A stretch of 64,000 bases of DNA from Candidatus Xenobia bacterium (GTDB lineage: Bacteria; Vulcanimicrobiota; Xenobia; Xenobiales; QWHO01), in NCBI GenBank assembly GCA_045863235.1, contig BTUM01000007.1:76286-140285 (forward strand), given 5' to 3'. Below are positions 19,916-28,065 of the stretch, piece by piece (within the stretch, counting starts at the first letter, position 1; each line of letters begins with the position of its first letter). The notes below the pieces were generated by a model, which ran no database searches, was not told where the DNA came from, and saw only the letters and a program-made list of their open reading frames with translations. The translations under genes and the position numbers were made by a program.

Positions 19916-20020
19916 CCGAATCATGGGGCTGGATTTTTTTTCAAGGAGCTCTGATGCGTTTAAGAACCAGCCTTTACTTGCTAGCTCTGCTCTTCCTGTT
20001 CGGCTGTTCCGGCGGGGGGG
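19916..20020 (+). repeat. Duplicated leader/5' region, copy B (see 18376-18480).
   Basis: Same T8 tract, SD and signal-peptide coding as copy A. Confidence 0.8.
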
Positions 20021-21915
20021 CGAGTTCTGCCGGCGGTGGTGTGCCTGCCCCCCCTCCAGGCCCTCAGTTCGTGAGCATGCGACTCGATGTCGCGGTGCCC
20101 GATCTGGCCCAGCGGGCCGTTCAGAGCCGCTCGCAGATCTTCGAAGTGGTGGTCGAGGTCGTTGATCGGAATTCGCTCGACCCGGGCACCCTCAGCGGCC
20201 GGAAGATCATCTCTCGCGGGGCGGCCTCGGTGGGTGAAACCGACCGGACTGTGAAGGTTCTCCTGGATGTGATTCCGGGGATCTGGGACATCTACATTTT
20301 CGGCCTGGATTCGCAGGGCAAAGTGGCGGCCCTCTCGACCATCGACCAGCTCGCGATCGTCGCGGGCGCCGTCATTGAGCGGAAGGTCAACCTTCAACAG
20401 GTGAACCAGGGAGTCTTCGTGACTCCCACCAGTGCGGCGGTTCCTGTCGGCGGGCAGGCTCAATTTTCAGCCGTGGTCTTCCTGCCGACCGGGACCAGCA
20501 CCAGTGTCAACTGGGTTTCTGATAATCCCGCAGTGGCCGGCGTTGACGCCAACGGCTTGGCGACCGGTTTGTCTCCGGGTCAGGCTCTTATCCGGGCGAT
20601 TTCCACCGTGGACAGCACCCTCCAGGGGACCGGGGTCCTGAATGTGACACCGCCCAATGTCACCGTGCAGTCGGTCACGCTCACTTTCAACCCCGGCTCC
20701 CCGGTGCGGCTTGGCCAGGCGGGTCTGCAGTTCAGCGCAGTTGCGAGTTTTAGCGATGGCACAAGCCAGGCTATTACACCGGACCAGTTCGTCAGCAGCG
20801 ATCCGACGGTGCTATCCGTGGATTCGGCCGGAGCGGCTCAGGCTCTGGACGTGGGCACGAGTGACGTGACGGCGGACTTCATGGGCGTGACGAGCGCACC
20901 GGTGACCGTGGACGTCGAGGCAAGCCGGGTCATCGTCGTGGAGTCCGAGCTCATCCAGCCCGACGAGATTTTCTCCTATCTTCTCGATGAGGGGACGGGC
21001 AGTCTCGTCCAGGTTGATGTCGAGACAGTCCCGGGCGGAGTCGGGGCTGGAATGGGCGGAGATCCTGACAGCGATGCCGTGTTCGTCAGCCAGACCAACA
21101 ACACTCTGGCGATTTACCTGGTGAGCGCACTGGGTATTCTGAACCAGTCCCAGATCATCGGTCTGGGCGGTGCTCCGACGCTTGTGCCCGCCACCGGCGC
21201 GGGAGGCTTCCTCTACCTCGCCGACAACAACCCGACTCCCCCTGATCTTCGCACCTTTGCCTTTGACGGTGTGCTCTACAACCTGGTCGGCCTCTCAAGT
21301 CCTGCTGGCGTTGCCGAGGTCCAGGTGATGGCCGCCAAGAACGGGATTCCAGCACTCTACCTGGCAGATTTCCTCGGGAATCTGTTGAACGGCCTGGTGC
21401 TGACCGGCTCCATTCCGGATGCGGTCGGAACCCAGGTGGGCGGCTCTCCCCAGGCGCTCGGCACTTCGCCTGCTCGCCTCGAGATTCACCCCAGCAACAA
21501 CTTCCTGGTGGTCGGTCGTACCGCTCATCTCGATGTCTTCCCCATCGATGCTGCCGGCAACATCACCGGGCCCGCCATCAGCACCCAGGTGACGGCCGGG
21601 ACGGCTTTCACCGCCCTGGCCATTCACCCGAGCGGGAACTTCGTGGCCGCCTGCACCCAGCAGGCCGGGGGAGTGATCGAGATCTTCCCGATCAACGCTT
21701 CGGGCATCCTGTCGCCGGCGGTGGCTACCATTCCCTCATCCGGCTCGCAGATCTTTGGCCTCGGTTTCAACGCCACCGGGACCTTCCTGATCTATCCGGA
21801 GCTGACCAACAATCAGGTGGTGGTCCAGCGGTTCGATCCGAATACCGGTGCCGTGACCCCCGCCACCACCAGCGGCGGGATCAACCGGCCCTTCGAGATG
21901 TTCATCTTCCCCTGA
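19954..21915 (+). CDS. Lipoprotein, paralog B: same signal peptide and N-terminal domain as 18415-19782 plus two Big_2-like domains and a C-terminal lactonase-like beta-propeller region.
   Basis: The first ~220 aa are ~75% identical to paralog A, including an identical lipobox. The C-terminal 200 aa (HPSNNFLVV...FPIDAAGNITGP...AIHPSGNFVAA...) have repeated propeller-blade-like units. Confidence 0.7.
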   Translation: MRLRTSLYLLALLFLFGCSGGGASSAGGGVPAPPPGPQFVSMRLDVAVPDLAQRAVQSRSQIFEVVVEVVDRNSLDPGTLSGRKIISRGAASVGETDRTVKVLLDVIPGIWDIYIFGLDSQGKVAALSTIDQLAIVAGAVIERKVNLQQVNQGVFVTPTSAAVPVGGQAQFSAVVFLPTGTSTSVNWVSDNPAVAGVDANGLATGLSPGQALIRAISTVDSTLQGTGVLNVTPPNVTVQSVTLTFNPGSPVRLGQAGLQFSAVASFSDGTSQAITPDQFVSSDPTVLSVDSAGAAQALDVGTSDVTADFMGVTSAPVTVDVEASRVIVVESELIQPDEIFSYLLDEGTGSLVQVDVETVPGGVGAGMGGDPDSDAVFVSQTNNTLAIYLVSALGILNQSQIIGLGGAPTLVPATGAGGFLYLADNNPTPPDLRTFAFDGVLYNLVGLSSPAGVAEVQVMAAKNGIPALYLADFLGNLLNGLVLTGSIPDAVGTQVGGSPQALGTSPARLEIHPSNNFLVVGRTAHLDVFPIDAAGNITGPAISTQVTAGTAFTALAIHPSGNFVAACTQQAGGVIEIFPINASGILSPAVATIPSSGSQIFGLGFNATGTFLIYPELTNNQVVVQRFDPNTGAVTPATTSGGINRPFEMFIFP

Positions 21916-21935
21916 CACTCGACGGTAGACCAGCA

Positions 21936-21975
21936 AGAAGGCGCGGAGCCGAAGCATCCGCGCCTTCTTCTGTTG
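21936..21975 (+). terminator. Rho-independent terminator-like hairpin after lipoprotein B (12-bp perfect stem, 9-nt loop, then TCTGTTG).
   Basis: agaaggcgcgga gccgaagca tccgcgccttct tctgtt. Confidence 0.5.
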
Positions 21976-22034: not shown

Positions 22035-23750
22035 ATGCTCTCCATTTCCGCAAGTGCCGAGTTTCGTCTGGCCGCCGCGGCCGATCTGCCGGCCGAGCTG
22101 GCTCGACTGCCTGAGGGTGCCACCGCCGTGCTCGCGCCCGGTCGCTACCGGCTCGGTGAGCTGACGCTCAAGCGCAACCTGCGATTGGTGGGTGCCGGGC
22201 TGGAGCGCACGGTATTGGAGGGGTCCCTGCGTCTCGAGCAGGGGCAATTCGGGCTGCTCGACCTCACCGTGGGGAAACTGCAGGCTCTCGACTGCCAGCT
22301 CGAGATAGAGCGCTGTCGGCTGCCGGGTATGGCCCTCGAGGGTGAGACCAGCGCCCGGGTGCGCTTCTGCCAGTGCGAGGGAGAAGAGGTGGGCATCCGG
22401 GTGGGCGGAACCGCTCGGGCCGAGCTGGAGAGCAATCGTTGCTGTCAGTGTGCCCTGTACGGCATTCTCTTTCAGGACGAGAGCAGCGGGCGGGCGGTTC
22501 AAAACGATTGCTCCGGCAACCAGGTGGGTATCGGCGTGATGGGGCAGGCCGCTGCGGAGCTTCTTGGTAACCACTGCAGCCAGAACGAGTCGGCCGGCAT
22601 TGCCTACCATCAGGAGGGCGGTGGTTTGGCTCGCAACAATGACTGCGAGGACAACGGCCACCATGGCATCGCTGTGGCCGGTCAGGCGGCCCCCCGTTTG
22701 CAGGGAAACTCCTGCTGTCACAACGGCTTCTGCGGCATCGACTACAGCGGCCAGGCCTCCGGCAGCGCCGAGAGCAACACTTGTTACGGCAACCAGGCCT
22801 ATGGCATTCAGGTAGGGGAGACCTCGGAACCGCGCTTGCTGGCCAATAGTTGCTCGGAGAATGCTCAGGCCGGGCTGGCCTACTTTGGCCGCGGCCAGGG
22901 CTCGGCCGACCGGAATCAGTGCGCTCGCAATCAGTTGCATGGCATCCAGGTGGGTGAGGAGGCTGCTCCCGCCCTACGGAGCAACATCTGCAGCCAGAAC
23001 TTGCTCTCCGGGCTGGCCTACTATGGCAAGAGCGGCGGCCAGGCCGGGCAGAACGAGCTCCACGACAACCAGTACCATGGCCTGCAGGTTTGCGAGCAGG
23101 CTCGTCCCGTGCTATGCGACAACGTGTGCCGGGCCAATGTCATGTCGGGGATCGCCTGTTTTGGCGAATCGCAGCCTGTGCTGGTGCGCAATCAGTGCCT
23201 CCACAATCAGCTGCACGGTCTCTACGTGGGCGAGCAGGCCGTTCCGGTGGCCCATGCCAACCTGGCCCACGAGAACCAGGGCAACGGTTTGCTGTTCACC
23301 GAGGAGGCGGCTGGCCTGGCCACCCACAATCAGGCTGATGCCAACGGCCGCCATGGACTCTACCTGGGCCATCGGGCCACTCCCTTCGCGCGCGAGAACC
23401 TCTGCCGGCGCAACTTGCTGTCGGACGTTGTGACCCTGGGCCAGGTCGACCCCGTGGTCAGCGTGGCGCCCGTGCGACGTCACCGGCTGACCCTCGAGTC
23501 CGAGGGCGGTTCCTTCGAGCTGGCCCTGCCCTTCGAGCTGAAGCCCACCGAGCGGGCGGTGCTCGAGCACCTGGCCCGCTACGGCCGCATGAGCGAGGCG
23601 GCCCTGGGCAAGGCGGTGGGCACCCGGCGCATCGGGGGGCTCTTAGAGAGCCTGGTGGAGCGCCTGAACCGGGCTGGATTTCTGGCTCTGGGCCGTGAGG
23701 GGGACGGCCCGGAGGGCAATGTCTATGAGCTGAGGAGAGACCGACTGTGA
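22035..23750 (+). CDS. Cytoplasmic Cys-rich right-handed parallel beta-helix (PbH1-repeat) protein with a C-terminal winged-helix-like domain; first gene of the four-gene coupled operon.
   Basis: About 17 tandem ~23-aa units of the form NxC..N..xGI/L....A.P.L (e.g. NHCSQNESAGIAYHQEGGGLARN / NDCEDNGHHGIAVAGQAAPRLQG). No signal peptide. C-terminal 90 aa (LEHLARYGRMSEAALGKAVGTRRIGGLLESLVERLNRAGFLAL) look like a winged HTH. The stop overlaps the next gene start (GTGA). Confidence 0.7.
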   Translation: MLSISASAEFRLAAAADLPAELARLPEGATAVLAPGRYRLGELTLKRNLRLVGAGLERTVLEGSLRLEQGQFGLLDLTVGKLQALDCQLEIERCRLPGMALEGETSARVRFCQCEGEEVGIRVGGTARAELESNRCCQCALYGILFQDESSGRAVQNDCSGNQVGIGVMGQAAAELLGNHCSQNESAGIAYHQEGGGLARNNDCEDNGHHGIAVAGQAAPRLQGNSCCHNGFCGIDYSGQASGSAESNTCYGNQAYGIQVGETSEPRLLANSCSENAQAGLAYFGRGQGSADRNQCARNQLHGIQVGEEAAPALRSNICSQNLLSGLAYYGKSGGQAGQNELHDNQYHGLQVCEQARPVLCDNVCRANVMSGIACFGESQPVLVRNQCLHNQLHGLYVGEQAVPVAHANLAHENQGNGLLFTEEAAGLATHNQADANGRHGLYLGHRATPFARENLCRRNLLSDVVTLGQVDPVVSVAPVRRHRLTLESEGGSFELALPFELKPTERAVLEHLARYGRMSEAALGKAVGTRRIGGLLESLVERLNRAGFLALGREGDGPEGNVYELRRDRL

Positions 23751-25066
23751 ACCAAAACCCCCAAGTCCTCGACCGGGCCGTCGCCCTGGGAATCGTCAAC
23801 GCCCTGCGCTCGGGAACCGTTCCCCCTGAAGGGCTCGAGCACTTTGCCGTGGGGCTGGACGCCCCGATGAAAGCCCTGTCCGAGCAGCGGGCCTACGTCA
23901 AGCAGGGCAAGAGCGCCTACAAGTTCATCCGGGGAAGCTACGGGTCGGGCAAGACTTTCTTGACCAGCCTGGCCGGTGCCCAGGCCCTGCAGGATGGCTT
24001 TTTGACCAGTAAAGTGGTCATCTCGGTCGCGGATACGCCTTTGTATCGGCTGAGCGAAGTCTATCGTCGTCTGTGCCAGAACCTGACCCTGCCCGGTCGC
24101 AGGGGTGGGGCCCTGCAAAGCCTGCTCGACCGCTGGCTCTACGGCCTGGAGGAGCAGGTCATCGAGGTGGACGGCGTGGACGAGAATGCACCCGAGTTCG
24201 AAGCCGCCGTGGGCCAGAAAGTGGAGCAGCACCTGGTGGCCGTCGGCCAGCGGGCGGGCCGCCTGGCTGCCTGCCTGAAGGCTTACCACGAGGCCAAGTT
24301 TCGCCAGGATTTCGAGGAGGCCCGGGGCATTCTCGACTGGATGGCGGGGGAGGCCAAAGTGGGCGCGGCCATCAAGCGGGTCGCCGGGGTCACCGGGCAG
24401 ATCGACAACACCGACGCCCTGGTCTTCTTGCGCGGCTGGCTCGAGCTGGTGCGGGCCGCCGGTCACGCCGGCATCCTGGTCATTCTCGACGAGGTGGAGA
24501 CGGTGCTGCGCCTGCGCCGTCCCGAGCGGCTCAAGAGCCTGGAGGTGCTGCGGCAGCTGGTGGACGCCCAGGATAACCAGGAATTCCCCGGTCTACACCT
24601 GCTCATTACCGGCACGCCCGATTTCTTTGACAGCCCGCAAGGGGTGCTCGAGCTCGAGCCCCTGCACGAGCGCATCAAGGTGCTCAAAGCCCACGATCAG
24701 CCCGAGAACCTGCGCCAGCCCCAGATCCCCCTGCGGCCCTTCGATACCGCTCGGCTCTTGCTCGCGGCCCGGCGCATTCGCGAGCTGTACCCGGCCGATC
24801 ACCCCGAGCGCTTGAAAGCCAGGGTGACCGATGATGTCTTCGAGGCCATGGTCGAGCGGGTCACGCGAGGTTTCGGTGGACGGGTCGAAGTCGTGCCGCG
24901 TCTGTTCTTGCGCGAGGTCGTCAACCTGCTCGACCTGGTGGATCAGCATGAGAGCTACGCGCCGATGCGCGACTACAGCTTCGACGAGAGCGCGGTGAAG
25001 ACGCTGGCCCTGGCTCCCGAGGAGGAGGAAGCCCTCAGCGGTGCTGTGCGCGAAGTGGTGCTGTGA
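23747..25066 (+). CDS. P-loop ATPase resembling the BREX ATP-binding protein BrxD (DUF2791-like).
   Basis: Walker A GSYGSGKTFL and Walker B ILVILDEVET in a ~440-aa protein. Domain order and length match BrxD-type ATPases. GTG start overlaps the previous stop; its own stop overlaps the helicase start (GTGCTGTGA). Confidence 0.6.
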   Translation: MNQNPQVLDRAVALGIVNALRSGTVPPEGLEHFAVGLDAPMKALSEQRAYVKQGKSAYKFIRGSYGSGKTFLTSLAGAQALQDGFLTSKVVISVADTPLYRLSEVYRRLCQNLTLPGRRGGALQSLLDRWLYGLEEQVIEVDGVDENAPEFEAAVGQKVEQHLVAVGQRAGRLAACLKAYHEAKFRQDFEEARGILDWMAGEAKVGAAIKRVAGVTGQIDNTDALVFLRGWLELVRAAGHAGILVILDEVETVLRLRRPERLKSLEVLRQLVDAQDNQEFPGLHLLITGTPDFFDSPQGVLELEPLHERIKVLKAHDQPENLRQPQIPLRPFDTARLLLAARRIRELYPADHPERLKARVTDDVFEAMVERVTRGFGGRVEVVPRLFLREVVNLLDLVDQHESYAPMRDYSFDESAVKTLALAPEEEEALSGAVREVVL

Positions 25067-27165
25067 CCTCGGCGCCCCCCAGCGCCTTCTTCCAGCTCTC
25101 CGAGCGAATGCGCCACGGCCTGGTCCACCGACTGGGATGGCGCTCCTTGCGTCCGGTGCAAGAGGTCAGCTTCCCGCCCATCCTGGCGGGCGAGAATGTG
25201 CTGGTTCTGGCCCCCACCGCCGGAGGCAAGACCGAGGCTGCCGTTCTGCCTGTGCTGGACCGACTGGGAACCGGGTTGGGCGCCCTGTTTCTCTCTCCTC
25301 TGCGGGCCCTGCTCAACAACCAGGAGCCGCGCCTCAAGGAGCTCGCCTCCCTGGTCGGGCTGGAGGTCTTCAAGTGGCACGGGGACGTTTCCGCCCATCT
25401 CAAGAAGCGGGTACAGGCCCACCTCTTGATGATCACGCCCGAGTCGCTGGAGGTCATCCTGACCTCGGGCCGGGGCGAGATGTTGAGCGAACTTTCCTGC
25501 GTCATCGTGGATGAGATCCACGCTTTCGCTGGAGATGACAGGGGAGACCATCTCCTGTGCCTGCTCGAGCGCCTGCGCGCCTACACTCCCCACGATTTCC
25601 AGCGCATCGGCCTGTCGGCCACGGTGGGAAATCCCGAGACGCTGTGTGAGTGGCTGCAGGGGTCGAGTCAGCGCCCGCGTCGGGTCGTGTCGCCCACGCG
25701 TGAGCCCGGTCGCCGCTTGATCGAGATCCACCCTCATGAGGAGTTCCAGGACCCGATTCGCACCGCGGCCCGTCTGGCCCGGGGCAAGAAGTCGCTCTTC
25801 TTCGCCGAGTCGCGGGGCAAGGTGGAGCGGGTTCGTGGGCAGCTCCAGGAGCTGGGGGTGCAGGCACTGGTGCACCACTCCTCGCTATCGCGCGAGGTGC
25901 GCGAGGCCACCGAGCAGGCCTTTCGCTCCGGCAGTAACTGTGCCATCGTGTGTACCCGCACCCTGGAGCTGGGATTGGACGTCGGGGACCTCGACCTGGT
26001 GCTGCAGCTCGACGCTCCCACTACGGTCTCGGGGTTTCTCCAGCGCCTCGGACGCACCGGGCGGCGCGACGGGGCGCGCGGGCACATGGCTTTCTGCACC
26101 GATGACCGTTGGAGCTTCCTCAGAGCCATCTCCCTGATTTCCCTGGCTGCCAAGGGGGTGGTCGAGCCGGTGCGCCCCTCGCGCTTTTCGCCCCATCTGT
26201 TCGTTCATCAGGTGCTCACCCGGGCGCTCGAGCAGCGCGGTCTCTCGCGCCCGGCCCTGCTGGCCACCCAGGGCTACTGTTTCTCCGACCTGACTGATTT
26301 GCAGCGCGAGCGCATTCTCGACCACCTGCTCGAGATGGACATCCTGGCCCGGGTCGACGGGCGTCTGGTGGTAGGCCGTCAGGGGGAGAAGGAGTTCGGA
26401 CGGGGCTACTTCCGCGAGCTCTACTCGGTCTTCGAGGCCCCTCGCGAGCTGGCCGTGGAAACTCCCGACGGCAAGCGCATCGGGTCGGTGGAATGCTGGT
26501 TTGCCCAGGTGAGCGGCGATAAACCGTTCTGCTTCCTGCTGGCCGGTCGTGCCTGGCGGGCGGTTCGCTGCCTCTGGGAGCGCTCCGTTCTGCTCGTCGA
26601 GCCAGCCGGCCAGGGGGCCATCCCTTCTTGGAGCGGCGAGCTGGTGCTGCTTCATCGGGACCTGTGCCGCGAGATGCGCGCTCACCTCGTGGCCGAGGAG
26701 CCGGTCTTGTTCTTGTCCGACGCCGCTCAGGCGATCCTCGAGCGGCTGCGCTCCGAGTGGCGCCCGCTCCTTTCTCACGCCCCGGTGATCTTGGAGCGCC
26801 GTGACCAGAAAGCGACCCTCTACACCTTTGCCGGGGGGCGCGTCAACAACGTGGTAGCAAGGCTCTACGCTCAGAGGACGGGGCTCGAGGCCCGGGCCGA
26901 CAACCTGCGGGTGCGCTTTGAGATGCCCACGGATGAGGTCTGGTCCGGCCCCATGGAGCGAGTTCTGGAGGAGCTGGCCACGCCCCTCTCGGGCGAGACC
27001 CTGCAGGCCCTCGTGAAAAGCATCCCCCGCGCGCGCGCCTCGAAGTTCCAGCCCTTTTTGCCGCCCGACCTGGAGGCCGCTTTCGTAGCCGGGCGATTGT
27101 TGGACCTGGAGGGAGCCATGAGCCTGGCGGCCGAAGACCTCGGGGTGGTGACCTTCGATGCCTGA
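25063..27165 (+). CDS. Lhr-like superfamily-2 DEAH helicase (BREX BrxHI-like).
   Basis: Motif I LAPTAGGKTEAA, motif II DEIHAF (DExH), motif III SAT (GLSATVGN), motif VI QRLGRTGRR. 700 aa with a C-terminal domain of Lhr-core type. GTG start overlaps the BrxD-like gene stop. Confidence 0.8.
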   Translation: MTSAPPSAFFQLSERMRHGLVHRLGWRSLRPVQEVSFPPILAGENVLVLAPTAGGKTEAAVLPVLDRLGTGLGALFLSPLRALLNNQEPRLKELASLVGLEVFKWHGDVSAHLKKRVQAHLLMITPESLEVILTSGRGEMLSELSCVIVDEIHAFAGDDRGDHLLCLLERLRAYTPHDFQRIGLSATVGNPETLCEWLQGSSQRPRRVVSPTREPGRRLIEIHPHEEFQDPIRTAARLARGKKSLFFAESRGKVERVRGQLQELGVQALVHHSSLSREVREATEQAFRSGSNCAIVCTRTLELGLDVGDLDLVLQLDAPTTVSGFLQRLGRTGRRDGARGHMAFCTDDRWSFLRAISLISLAAKGVVEPVRPSRFSPHLFVHQVLTRALEQRGLSRPALLATQGYCFSDLTDLQRERILDHLLEMDILARVDGRLVVGRQGEKEFGRGYFRELYSVFEAPRELAVETPDGKRIGSVECWFAQVSGDKPFCFLLAGRAWRAVRCLWERSVLLVEPAGQGAIPSWSGELVLLHRDLCREMRAHLVAEEPVLFLSDAAQAILERLRSEWRPLLSHAPVILERRDQKATLYTFAGGRVNNVVARLYAQRTGLEARADNLRVRFEMPTDEVWSGPMERVLEELATPLSGETLQALVKSIPRARASKFQPFLPPDLEAAFVAGRLLDLEGAMSLAAEDLGVVTFDA

Positions 27166-27496
27166 GCCGAAAAAGTTTGCTCTGAGTGCTGATGAGATCC
27201 GTCCTCTGGTTTCGGGGCGGGGCGCCTGTTTTGCCAGCGATCGGATCACCGTGGACGGGAGCCGGGTCGGCTACTGCTATCGAGAAGAGCCCGACAACGA
27301 GGTGGATAGTGGCTGGAGGTTCCTGGCCGGGGATGAGACGGACGCTTACATGGAGGACGTCGCCAATCACGGTGTTTACGACGTGAACACGATTGCCAAC
27401 TACGACCCGGACATCATCGCCCTGCTCGATTCTCCCATCGGCTCGGAGTTTGCGCGGGATCGGGCCAGCGGGGAGTTCCGGACCCTCCCGGGCTAG
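27158..27496 (+). CDS. Small (112 aa) acidic protein, fourth gene of the coupled operon; function unknown (immunity-protein-like DUF).
   Basis: ATG at 27158 overlaps the helicase stop (GATGCCTGA). Acidic, with a DSGWRF motif. No TM segment or signal peptide. Confidence 0.5.
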   Translation: MPEPKKFALSADEIRPLVSGRGACFASDRITVDGSRVGYCYREEPDNEVDSGWRFLAGDETDAYMEDVANHGVYDVNTIANYDPDIIALLDSPIGSEFARDRASGEFRTLPG

Positions 27497-27570: not shown

Positions 27571-28065
27571 TTAAAGGAGACGGCCGAGCAGGGCGGGCTC
27601 GTCGGAGGGCTTGTGGAAGATCGAGTCGACCTCCAAGACGCCGTAGGTGTCGAAAGCCTTGACATCGTTGGGCCGCCGGGCGCTGTAAAGGATGCCCTCG
27701 ATGTCTTGCTGCTGGAATTCGTCAAGCAGGCGCTCGGCCCGGTCGCTGGTGCAGAAATTGGGATCGCACCCCTCGAGAATGGTATCCAGCAGTTGCTTGC
27801 GGTAGTCGCTGGGAGGTCGCTGGCTCAACAGCTCGAGAAAGTTCAGGCCGTTGATGCGCTCTTGAAGGTCGGCCAGGTCGAGGTCGAAGTCCGAGACGAT
27901 CGCTCGGAGACGCGAGAGCTTACCGTCCTCGTGGGCTGCCAGGAGCGTCTGCAAGGCTTCACAGGGGCTATCCACGACCCGGCAGCGCAGCTTCTTGGAG
28001 CGCAAACGTAAGACAGCGCGCTCGATCAGTTCAGGCTCATTTTCGATCCACAGTACCCAGGCCAT
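27571..28065 (-). CDS. Degenerate (pseudo-)receiver domain protein.
   Basis: CheY-like beta-alpha pattern VLWIENEP...LRCRVVDS...AIVSDFDLD, but the conserved Asp pair is replaced by E-N-E. 164 aa. Convergent with the four-gene operon. Confidence 0.45.
   Translation of the reverse strand: MAWVLWIENEPELIERAVLRLRSKKLRCRVVDSPCEALQTLLAAHEDGKLSRLRAIVSDFDLDLADLQERINGLNFLELLSQRPPSDYRKQLLDTILEGCDPNFCTSDRAERLLDEFQQQDIEGILYSARRPNDVKAFDTYGVLEVDSIFHKPSDEPALLGRLL

What the first reader, a model, noticed from the sequence alone, without database searches (positions are those of the whole stretch)
22035..27496. Four-gene translationally coupled operon: Cys-rich beta-helix/wHTH protein, BrxD-like ATPase, BrxHI/Lhr-like helicase, small acidic protein. 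No methyltransferase or PglZ nearby, so it is a candidate undescribed defence-type system.
Four consecutive plus-strand genes are linked by overlapping stop/start codons: GTGA at 23747, GTGCTGTGA at 25063, GATGCCTGA at 27158. They are flanked upstream by a terminator hairpin and downstream by a convergent gene, so they form one self-contained unit. Genes 2 and 3 have the architecture of the BREX accessory pair. Gene 2 is a ~440-aa P-loop ATPase (Walker A GSYGSGKT, Walker B ILVILDEVET). Gene 3 is a 700-aa Lhr-core-like DEAH helicase (motifs I, II, III, VI all visible). In the BREX type 2 / Pgl systems this pair accompanies PglX, PglZ, BrxC and PglW. None of these, and no methyltransferase, phosphatase or nuclease gene, is present within at least 20 kb. 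Here the pair is instead wired to a cytoplasmic protein of ~17 Cys-containing parallel beta-helix repeats ending in a winged-helix-like domain, and to a 112-aa acidic protein. I know of no described defence system with this combination. The ATPase plus SF2 helicase core is the kind of module that underlies many anti-phage systems. No integrase, transposase or tRNA flanks it, so it is not obviously on a mobile island.
Basis: partly seen in the sequence, partly recalled or inferred. Interest (0 to 1): 0.85.

Follow-up and report, generated by a model that had tools for sequence, protein, structure and literature searches.

The report
Beta-helix partner for BREX ATPase-helicase pair
An uncultured soil-phylum bacterium (Eremiobacterota) carries a conserved three-gene module in which the ATPase-helicase pair of type-2 BREX phage defence is coupled to a beta-helix repeat protein that keeps only PglZ's small C-terminal winged-helix domain; this is probably an undescribed, methylation-free relative of BREX-2 and Shango, and no experiment has tested it.

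Summary
Four overlapping plus-strand genes lie at 22035-27496, between an upstream hairpin and a convergent gene. Gene 2 is BrxD (NCBIfam equivalog, 465 bits against a cutoff of 350). Gene 3 is BrxHI (PADLOC, E 2e-210). Gene 1 is a confidently modelled right-handed beta-helix followed by a winged helix (pLDDT 91). Gene 4 is an Imm33-family protein.

New findings:
- The window comes from an Eremiobacterota/Vulcanimicrobiota genome.
- Gene 1 plus BrxD are neighbours in all 17 related places that leave room to judge. BrxHI is present in most of them. Gene 4 occurs only in close relatives sharing 90% identity or more, so the core has three genes, not four.
- The C-terminal winged helix of gene 1 is homologous to the C-terminal winged helix of BREX-2 PglZ, the gene that precedes BrxD in BREX-2 (43% identity, E 2e-19).
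- A profile of that domain finds only 97 protein clusters. It always sits at the C-terminus, on beta-helix, PglZ, TPR, STAND-like or unknown heads. In every context I sampled, BrxD or BrxHI lies next to it or one gene away.
- No PglX, PglY, PglZ or PglW is present in the 64-kb window.

Verdict: this is a new variant of a known kind, a BREX-2-derived, Shango-like triad. A defence role is inferred and has not been shown.

The parts
21931..21975 (+). Stable hairpin followed by a T-rich tail. It is the likely terminator of the upstream Big_2/lactonase-like gene (19954-21915) and marks the 5' boundary of the unit.
   Evidence: dG -30.2 kcal/mol, z -5.25; sequence
22035..23465 (+). Gene 1, N-terminal part (residues 1 to about 477). 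A cytoplasmic right-handed parallel beta-helix made of very regular Cys/Asn/Gly-containing PbH1 repeats (23 Cys), with no signal peptide. This is the variable 'head'.
   Evidence: Pfam Beta_helix E 2.4e-48 and NosD E 8e-22; TIGR03804 repeat; AF2 model with pLDDT 91; Foldseek gives only generic beta-helix matches at 10-15% identity
23481..23750 (+). Gene 1, C-terminal domain (residues 483-571). A beta-hairpin followed by a three-stranded winged helix-turn-helix, homologous to the C-terminal wHTH of BREX-2 PglZ. This is the constant 'adaptor' domain that travels with BrxD.
   Evidence: AF2 pLDDT 91; 43% identity over 84 aa, E 2e-19, to the L017 PglZ C-terminus; HMM hits to the L017 and L025 PglZ C-termini at E 5e-36 and 1.5e-24; profile search finds 97 clusters, always at the C-terminus
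23747..25066 (+). Gene 2: BrxD, an ORC/Cdc6-type AAA+ ATPase with Walker A GSYGSGK69T and Walker B ILVILDEVET. Its start overlaps the stop of gene 1 (GTGA).
   Evidence: NCBIfam BREX_BrxD 465 bits against cutoff 350; PADLOC BrxD E 2.6e-141, SngB E 1.5e-45; Pfam BrxC_BrxD E 2e-121
25063..27165 (+). Gene 3: BrxHI, an Lhr/Ski2-like SF2 DEAH helicase with no nuclease domain. Its start overlaps the stop of gene 2 (GTGA).
   Evidence: PADLOC BrxHI E 2.3e-210 over residues 7-694, SngC E 1.6e-130; Pfam DEAD plus Helicase_C
27158..27496 (+). Gene 4: an acidic (pI 4.3) Imm33/DUF2185-family protein that overlaps the stop of gene 3 (ATGCCTGA). It is a species-level add-on and not part of the conserved core.
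   Evidence: Pfam Imm33 E 1.2e-34; present only in L006, L007, L026 and L027, absent in L008 and all others; dN/dS 0.04-0.10
27571..28065 (-). Convergent 164-aa gene of unknown function that marks the 3' boundary. It is not part of the module.
   Evidence: The minus frame is 98-100% conserved in relatives and 87% in L008; no Pfam or PADLOC hit

Best explanation
This is a three-gene module restricted, as far as found, to Eremiobacterota. It descends from the PglZ-BrxD-BrxHI block of type-2 BREX and has the same architecture as Shango. I think it most likely acts as a methylation-independent anti-phage or anti-plasmid system.

Shown here:
- Gene 1 keeps the C-terminal three-stranded winged helix of BREX-2 PglZ, but the phosphatase/nuclease body has been replaced by a ~470-residue cytoplasmic beta-helix.
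- Gene 2 is a bona fide BrxD AAA+ ATPase and gene 3 a bona fide BrxHI Lhr-like helicase.
- Gene 1 and BrxD are neighbours in every locus with room to judge. BrxHI usually follows.
- The winged-helix domain occurs on several different heads (PglZ, beta-helix, TPR, STAND-like NTPase, an unknown 445-aa protein). In each sampled case BrxD or BrxHI lies next to it or one gene away.

Inferred:
- The winged helix tethers a variable head to the BrxD-BrxHI motor, to DNA, or to both. Its recognition helix carries an invariant T-R-R.
- The beta-helix, like the TPR and STAND heads, is a non-enzymatic repeat scaffold that senses an invader-derived molecule.
- On sensing, oligomeric BrxD loads or activates BrxHI on foreign DNA or replication intermediates, and unwinding disrupts replication. 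Shango likewise encodes no nuclease.
- Imm33 (gene 4) is a recent lineage-specific accessory, perhaps a regulator.

The confidence given (0.55) is for the defence function. The evolutionary and structural statements listed under 'Shown here' I hold at about 0.9.
For: Family identities.

Structure of gene 1 and its C-terminal domain. The three-stranded wHTH matches what PMC12839542 (section 18) reports for type-2 PglZ.

Homology of the domain to BREX-2 PglZ: L017 at 43% identity, E 2e-19. L017's PglZ scores 628 bits on NCBIfam BREX_PglZ_2. HMM hits to the L017 and L025 PglZ C-termini are E 5e-36 and 1.5e-24, with a weak hit at the same position in the Azospirillum PglZ.

Conserved neighbourhood: L001, L002, L006-L016 and L026-L028. 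In L010 the BrxD-BrxHI pair is inverted but still adjacent. All-against-all ORF clustering finds only genes 1, 2 and 3 conserved across subclades.

The domain travels with BrxD/BrxHI on other heads:
- TPR head, BrxD directly downstream (L021, L022).
- STAND-like head, then Uma2, then BrxD (L024).
- 445-aa protein directly after a BrxHI-like helicase (L023).
- PglZ followed by BrxD (L017, L025).
- A beta-helix homologue that ends in a trypsin domain where gene 1 has the winged helix is not followed by BrxD (L005).

Rarity and position: 97 clusters among 1.84 billion representatives, always C-terminal.

Phylogeny: BrxDs linked to beta-helix genes form one clade sister to PglZ-linked BrxDs, with Shango SngB as outgroup.

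Rates: gene 1 is 29-43% identical across subclades where BrxD is 60-74%, as expected if a sensor evolves faster than the motor.

Precedent: Shango shares the gene order and sizes and is experimentally anti-phage.
Against: - No experiment exists for this module. The individual roles of BrxD and BrxHI within BREX-2 are themselves uncharacterised (PMC12839542).
- The locus is not in a recognisable defence island. There are no PADLOC hits in 10 flanking proteins, no tRNA, and flanks in other genomes are housekeeping genes.
- Within subclades the position is syntenic, for example next to MutS2 in L012, L013 and L016. This points to vertical inheritance, not mobility.
- dN/dS on the beta-helix is low (0.06-0.10), so there is no sign of an arms race at short range.
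- Three loci lack an adjacent helicase.
- No effector nuclease or toxin is encoded.
- Whole genomes could not be scanned, so BREX core genes acting in trans are not excluded. Some Eremiobacterota BrxDs fall outside the beta-helix clade (P0067, P0088, P0096).
- Binding of the winged helix to BrxD is inferred from neighbourhood only.
Confidence: 0.55

Rival explanations
1. The module is a lineage-specific housekeeping unit for DNA repair or replication restart. An ORC-like loader and an Lhr-type repair helicase would be guided by a DNA-binding beta-helix/wHTH protein, and the module would have nothing to do with immunity.
For: - Lhr-core helicases function in DNA repair. Gene 3 scores E 1.4e-69 on the ligase-associated DEXH helicase model, though far below its cutoff.
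- Flanks are ordinary genes.
- One subclade is syntenic with MutS2.
- BrxD is strongly conserved at 60-97% identity, and dN/dS is low.
- No mobile-element genes or tRNA were seen.
Against: - The nearest relatives of genes 2 and 3, and of the C-terminal domain, all lie in BREX-2 or BREX-like loci or in Shango.
- Head-domain swapping on a constant adaptor (beta-helix, TPR, STAND, PglZ) is typical of conflict systems.
- The helicase is dispensable in one subclade.
- Only 9 species genomes were recovered in the GTDB representative scan, although that scan's sensitivity is limited.
Confidence: 0.2
2. The module is an orphaned accessory block of a type-2 BREX system. It would work only together with PglX/PglY/PglZ/PglW encoded elsewhere in the same genome, and the beta-helix protein would merely add a sensor.
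For: - BrxD and BrxHI have so far been described only as type-2 BREX components.
- Eremiobacterota also hold BrxDs outside the beta-helix clade that may belong to true BREX-2 loci.
- The rest of the genome could not be examined.
Against: - No BREX core gene lies within the 64-kb window or within about 10 kb either side in any of the ~17 related loci.
- Gene 1 occupies PglZ's slot and carries PglZ's terminal domain, which argues for replacement and not addition.
- BrxDs linked to beta-helix genes are a separate, well-populated clade: 51 of the 120 best database clusters.
- Shango shows that an ATPase-helicase pair with one partner can defend on its own.
Confidence: 0.12
3. Gene 1 is a carbohydrate-active or cell-surface beta-helix enzyme (of the NosD, AlgG or lyase kind) that merely happens to sit next to a BrxD-BrxHI pair. 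A variant of this idea is that the operon is a toxin-immunity cassette, because gene 4 belongs to the Imm33 family.
For: - Pfam NosD and Beta_helix hits.
- Structural neighbours are alginate epimerases and lyases and phage tailspikes.
- Imm33 is annotated as a polymorphic-toxin immunity domain.
Against: - Gene 1 has no signal peptide or transmembrane segment.
- It is fused to the wHTH of cytoplasmic PglZ.
- It overlaps the start codon of BrxD and is adjacent to BrxD in all loci.
- Structural matches are generic, at 10-15% identity and low TM-score.
- NCBIfam enzyme models score far below their cutoffs.
- Conserved positions are repeat-core N, C and G residues and not a single active-site cluster.
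- Imm33 is absent from all but the closest relatives, and no toxin domain is present.
Confidence: 0.05

Closest known systems
Type-2 BREX / Pgl system (PglW, PglX, PglY, PglZ, BrxD, BrxHI)
   Same: - BrxD passes NCBI's equivalog cutoff and BrxHI matches its profile end to end.
- The order 'protein ending in a three-stranded wHTH, then BrxD, then BrxHI' is the same as PglZ-BrxD-BrxHI in L017, L025 and L029.
- The wHTH is homologous at 43% identity.
- BrxDs from beta-helix loci are sister to PglZ-linked BrxDs, at 57-61% identity.
   Different: - No PglX methyltransferase, PglY/BrxC, PglW or PglZ phosphatase domain is present in the window or in the flanks of related loci, so there is no modification arm and no known effector.
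- The body of PglZ is replaced by a beta-helix.
- As far as found, the module is restricted to Eremiobacterota.
Shango (SngA TerB-domain protein, SngB ATPase, SngC helicase)
   Same: - It is a three-gene operon with the same order and nearly the same sizes: 570-840, ~440 and ~730 aa, against 571, 439 and 700 aa here.
- SngB and SngC are homologues of genes 2 and 3 (PADLOC E 1.5e-45 and 1.6e-130).
- It encodes no methyltransferase or nuclease.
- It is experimentally anti-phage.
   Different: - Gene 1 has no TerB, TerB-N or TerB-C domain. The Pfam TerB_C hit is only E 0.23 and hhalign gives probability 0.4%.
- Genes 2 and 3 are only 24-30% identical to SngB/SngC and score far better on the BrxD/BrxHI profiles.
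- Shango occurs on plasmids and in defence hotspots of Proteobacteria and Firmicutes.
Repeat-sensor NTPase conflict systems (STAND/Avs-like architecture) and Hachiman (Ski2-like sensor helicase HamB)
   Same: There is a variable repeat head (beta-helix, TPR) alongside a conserved NTPase/helicase engine. According to PMC12839542, BrxHI belongs to the same Ski2-like helicase group as HamB.
   Different: The sensor, ATPase and helicase are separate polypeptides. There is no HamA-type nuclease or other effector domain. The comparison is an analogy only, and homology to these systems was not tested beyond the weak PADLOC HamB hits (E ~1e-17).

Membership tests
BREX type 2 (Pgl) | PglX (BrxX) N6-adenine methyltransferase in the locus | tested here: not met
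   No methyltransferase was found among any ORF of 550 aa or more in the 64-kb window, and no ORF exceeds 900 aa. None appears in the flanks of related loci.
BREX type 2 (Pgl) | PglZ alkaline-phosphatase-fold protein | tested here: not met
   tblastn with the L017 PglZ hits only residues 887-970, which align to the C-terminal domain of gene 1. Gene 1 has no Pfam PglZ domain. Only the terminal wHTH of PglZ-2 is present.
BREX type 2 (Pgl) | PglY/BrxC large ATPase and PglW kinase-nuclease | tested here: not met
   tblastn with the L017 PglY finds no match in the window. No ORF exceeds 900 aa.
BREX type 2 (Pgl) | BrxD ATPase plus BrxHI helicase as a linked dyad | tested here: met
   NCBIfam BREX_BrxD 465 bits against cutoff 350. 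PADLOC BrxD E 2.6e-141 and BrxHI E 2.3e-210. The two genes overlap by 4 nt.
Shango | SngA with TerB (and TerB-N / TerB-C) domains | tested here: not met
   Gene 1 has no TerB hit in Pfam, NCBIfam or PADLOC. The TerB_C hit is E 0.23 only. hhalign of the C-terminal domain against three SngA C-termini gives probability 0.4%. The domain HMM scores E above 0.1 on SngA.
Shango | SngB ATPase and SngC helicase following the first gene in one operon | tested here: inconclusive
   The proteins are homologous and the gene order is the same. However, genes 2 and 3 score much higher on BrxD/BrxHI than on SngB/SngC, and they branch with BREX-2 while Shango is the outgroup.
Right-handed parallel beta-helix (PF13229 / PbH1 repeats) | Pfam gathering score and a beta-helix fold | tested here: met
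   164 bits against cutoff 25.9. The AF2 model shows regular three-strand coils over residues 10-470 with pLDDT above 95.
Imm33 (PF09951) | Pfam gathering score | tested here: met
   Gene 4 scores 118 bits against cutoff 25.4 and covers 85 of 87 profile positions.
Anti-phage defence system (any) | Protection against phage on expression; enrichment in defence islands | not testable with these tools
   No experiment was possible. The flanks carry no PADLOC-recognised genes, so the defence-island criterion is not met in the window.

The most novel reading that the evidence does not exclude
BrxD-BrxHI may be a free-standing, methylation-independent immune motor. A ~90-residue winged-helix adaptor would plug interchangeable heads into it: the PglZ enzyme in BREX-2, and beta-helix, TPR or STAND-like sensors elsewhere. 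On this reading the Eremiobacterota beta-helix triad is a new autonomous defence system. It would also show that the C-terminal wHTH of type-2 PglZ is the physical link between the BREX core and its accessory helicase module, which gives a testable handle on the unexplained role of BrxD/BrxHI in Pgl/BREX-2.
Probability: 0.4. Interest if true: 0.72.

Novelty: new variant of a known kind. Interest (0 to 1): 0.6.

Why it matters
BrxD and BrxHI are the least understood parts of type-2 BREX, and the latest survey regards them as specific to that system. Here the pair is stably inherited without any BREX core, across a phylum-wide clade. It is always tied to a protein that retains only PglZ's terminal winged helix. 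That points to the domain through which the pair is coupled to its partner. It also suggests the pair can work without methylation, as Shango's homologous pair does. It adds a cytoplasmic beta-helix to the known sensor-like heads, and it gives a first candidate immune module for the largely uncultured Eremiobacterota. If the triad protects against phage, it would be a compact 5-kb model for studying what BrxD and BrxHI do.

Tried and rejected
1. TerB-C homology of the gene 1 C-terminus. The only lead was a Pfam hit at E 0.23. hhalign against SngA C-termini gave probability 0.4% and the HMM gave nothing. Rejected.
2. Gene 4 as a fourth component. It is absent in L008 and in all more distant loci. 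Rejected as part of the core.
3. A specific solved relative of the C-terminal domain. Foldseek against PDB gave only generic MarR-type wHTHs, with best E 0.015.
4. A catalytic assignment for the beta-helix. Foldseek gave generic epimerase, lyase and tailspike hits at 10-15% identity.
5. tblastn of the C-terminal domain against plasmids found no match. The Azospirillum plasmid's PglZ C-terminus matched only weakly with an HMM.
6. Defence-island context. There are no PADLOC hits in 10 flanking proteins and no tRNA.
7. A further conserved partner gene. All-against-all ORF clustering of 14 loci found none beyond genes 1-3.
8. The metagenome scan with the domain added only 3 loci. The pattern-based genome scan is insensitive, so prevalence within the phylum could not be estimated.
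9. The helicase NJ tree does not recover a single beta-helix clade, so I draw no conclusion from it.
10. The generic terminator and promoter scan found nothing significant in the operon.

Full report
OBSERVATION

Their start and stop codons overlap: GTGA at 23747, GTGA at 25063 and ATGCCTGA at 27158. A strong hairpin lies upstream at 21931-21975 (dG -30.2 kcal/mol, z -5.25). The downstream boundary is a real convergent gene: the minus frame of 27571-28065 is 98-100% conserved in relatives, against 70-78% for the overlapping plus frame. Against four close relatives all four genes show dN/dS of 0.04-0.10, so all four are functional genes.

IDENTITIES

- Gene 2 is BrxD. It scores 465 bits on the NCBIfam BREX_BrxD equivalog (cutoff 350), PADLOC BrxD E 2.6e-141, and Pfam BrxC_BrxD E 2e-121.
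- Gene 3 is BrxHI. It scores PADLOC E 2.3e-210 across residues 7-694, has DEAD and Helicase_C domains, and has no nuclease domain.
- Both also hit Shango's SngB and SngC, much more weakly (E 1.5e-45 and 1.6e-130).
- Gene 4 is an Imm33/DUF2185-family protein (E 1.2e-34).
- Gene 1 hits only generic beta-helix and NosD repeat models and has no PADLOC model.
- AlphaFold models gene 1 with pLDDT 91. It is an uninterrupted right-handed beta-helix over residues ~10-470, a short linker, then a beta-hairpin and a three-stranded winged helix-turn-helix at 483-566. There is no signal peptide.
- Structure searches return only generic relatives for both parts.

SOURCE AND CONSERVATION

A scan of one genome per GTDB species with a gene 1 alignment returned nine loci. 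Apart from two records titled only 'bacterium' (L009, L011), all are labelled as Eremiobacterota/Vulcanimicrobiota MAGs, or, for two TPA assemblies, 'Burkholderiales'. One of those two (L007) is 93% identical to the window across gene 1, so for it the label looks like a binning artefact. The window is 93-97% identical to two of the nine loci.

Together with loci reached through protein look-ups and a metagenome scan, tblastn shows the following.
- A gene 1 homologue lies next to BrxD in all 17 places that leave room to judge.
- BrxHI follows in the window, L001, L006-L009, L011, L014, L015 and L026-L028.
- In L010 the BrxD-BrxHI pair is inverted but still adjacent.
- Three loci (L012, L013, L016) share a divergent MutS2 neighbour and have only the gene 1-BrxD dyad.
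- All-against-all clustering of ORFs from 14 loci finds nothing else conserved across subclades.
- Gene 4 occurs only in the closest relatives. In L008 (gene 1 72% identical) the BrxHI stop abuts the same convergent gene with no gene 4.

The conserved unit is therefore a triad, not a tetrad. BrxD is 60-74% identical across subclades in which gene 1 is only 29-43% identical.

THE KEY LINK TO BREX-2

A BrxD homologue of 57% identity (P0092) lies in a BREX-2-type locus, L017, with the order PglY-PglZ-BrxD-BrxHI::nuclease. Its PglZ scores 628 bits on NCBIfam BREX_PglZ_2. The last ~90 residues of that PglZ lie beyond the end of the NCBIfam profile. They align to gene 1 residues 489-571 at 43% identity, E 2e-19. 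A second such locus, L025, behaves the same way. The PglZ of a complete BREX locus on an Azospirillum plasmid gives a weak hit at the same terminal position. That locus reads BrxC-like, PglX-type methylase, MBL, PglZ, BrxD, BrxHI. The 2026 BREX survey states that type-2 PglZ ends in a three-stranded wHTH and that BrxD and BrxHI are a tightly linked dyad specific to type 2 (PMC12839542). Gene 1 therefore occupies PglZ's slot and carries PglZ's terminal domain, with the enzyme body replaced by a beta-helix.

THE DOMAIN IS A RARE, MOBILE C-TERMINAL MODULE

A profile of the domain, searched against 1.84 billion representative proteins, found 97 clusters. In every one the domain sits at the extreme C-terminus. 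By BLAST and Pfam the carriers are:
- beta-helix proteins of ~565-611 aa;
- BREX-2 PglZs of 830-1030 aa;
- about eighteen ~600-aa proteins, of which the three scanned with Pfam are TPR proteins;
- a STAND-like NTPase;
- proteins of 350-500 aa with unknown heads;
- fragments.

I sampled the following contexts.
- A TPR carrier is followed directly by a BrxD (L021, L022).
- The STAND-like carrier is followed by Uma2 and then a BrxD (L024).
- A 445-aa carrier directly follows a BrxHI-like helicase (L023).
- A gene 1-like beta-helix protein that ends in a trypsin domain in its place is not next to BrxD (L005).

In a neighbour-joining tree the BrxDs linked to beta-helix genes form one clade. It includes 51 of the 120 best database clusters and is sister to the PglZ-linked BrxDs. 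The STAND-linked and TPR-linked BrxDs branch deeper, and Shango SngB is the outgroup. The helicase tree is less tidy.

ABSENCE OF THE BREX CORE AND OF AN ISLAND CONTEXT

No ORF in the window exceeds 900 aa. Every ORF of 550 aa or more was scanned and none is a BREX component. PglY and PglZ queries hit only the C-terminal domain of gene 1. Ten flanking proteins have no PADLOC hit and the window has no tRNA. Flanks in other genomes are ordinary metabolic or repair genes.

INTERPRETATION

The evolutionary and structural statements above rest on direct results, and I hold them with high confidence (about 0.9). The functional reading is an inference, which I hold at about 0.55: a methylation-independent anti-invader module in which a repeat-scaffold head is tethered by the wHTH to a BrxD loader and a BrxHI helicase. 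It rests on three things.
- Homology to BREX-2 and Shango. Shango has the same three-gene layout and protects against phage.
- The head-swapping pattern on a constant adaptor domain.
- The faster divergence of gene 1 relative to BrxD.

Several observations count against it:
- the non-island, partly syntenic genomic context;
- low dN/dS at short range;
- the lack of any encoded effector;
- the dyad-only subclade;
- the fact that whole genomes could not be checked for BREX genes acting in trans.

A housekeeping DNA-repair role is the main rival.

NOVELTY

PADLOC v2 has no model for gene 1. The BREX survey does not mention beta-helix or TPR partners, or Eremiobacterota. Literature searches for the combination returned nothing. 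I rate the module a new variant of a known kind, not a categorically new system.

Noticed in passing
L017:3380-19625 and L025:3379-14643: These are BREX-2-like loci with the order PglY-PglZ-BrxD-helicase and no PglX-type methyltransferase within about 10 kb. In L017 the BrxHI is fused to a PD-(D/E)XK nuclease (1714 aa) and is followed by an AddA-like UvrD-nuclease. In L025 the helicase is flanked by two BrxD paralogues (61% and 52% identical to gene 2).
   Followed up: partly
L021:1291-4381 (also L022): A TPR protein ending in the same winged-helix domain is followed directly by a 425-aa BrxD (38% identical to gene 2), with no helicase on the contig. This may be a separate TPR-BrxD dyad family (about 18 clusters of similar ~600-aa size; three of them confirmed as TPR).
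   Followed up: partly
L024:1644-6944: This locus reads NERD-UvrD-like helicase, STAND-like NTPase carrying the winged-helix domain, Uma2 nuclease-fold protein, then BrxD (45% identical, cut by the contig end). It looks like another defence-style arrangement of the same adaptor.
   Followed up: no
L012:4409-13086, L013:1257-8435, L016:5438-11305: In one subclade the beta-helix-BrxD dyad has no adjacent helicase and always sits divergently next to MutS2 (MutS_V plus Smr). In L016 MutS2 appears split into a 782-aa and a 79-aa Smr gene.
   Followed up: partly
L015:9352-9933 and L009:11770-12388: Small extra ORFs (50 and 141 aa in L015) or a ~620-bp gap separate the beta-helix gene from BrxD in some lineages, so translational coupling of genes 1 and 2 is not universal.
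   Followed up: no
window:14462-16939 (-): An 825-aa ORF combines an N-terminal YidD-like membrane-insertion-factor domain with a clostripain (Peptidase_C11) domain, which is an unusual pairing. The long ORF may merge two genes.
   Followed up: no
window:24-1763 (+): This ORF is a PEP mutase fused to a MobA-like nucleotidyltransferase domain, which suggests a phosphonate biosynthesis locus at the left end of the window.
   Followed up: no
L005:167-3076 (P0006) and L003:10001-12925 (P0004): The same Cys-rich beta-helix repeat type is fused to a C-terminal trypsin-like protease (969 aa) or to HEAT repeats (974 aa). Neither is shown to be next to BrxD; the L003 contig ends at the gene.
   Followed up: partly
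L002:1-752 (-): A fragment 56% identical to the N-terminus of gene 3 lies at the far end of the same 13.7-kb contig that carries the beta-helix-BrxD pair, in the opposite orientation. It may be an assembly artefact or a second helicase copy.
   Followed up: no
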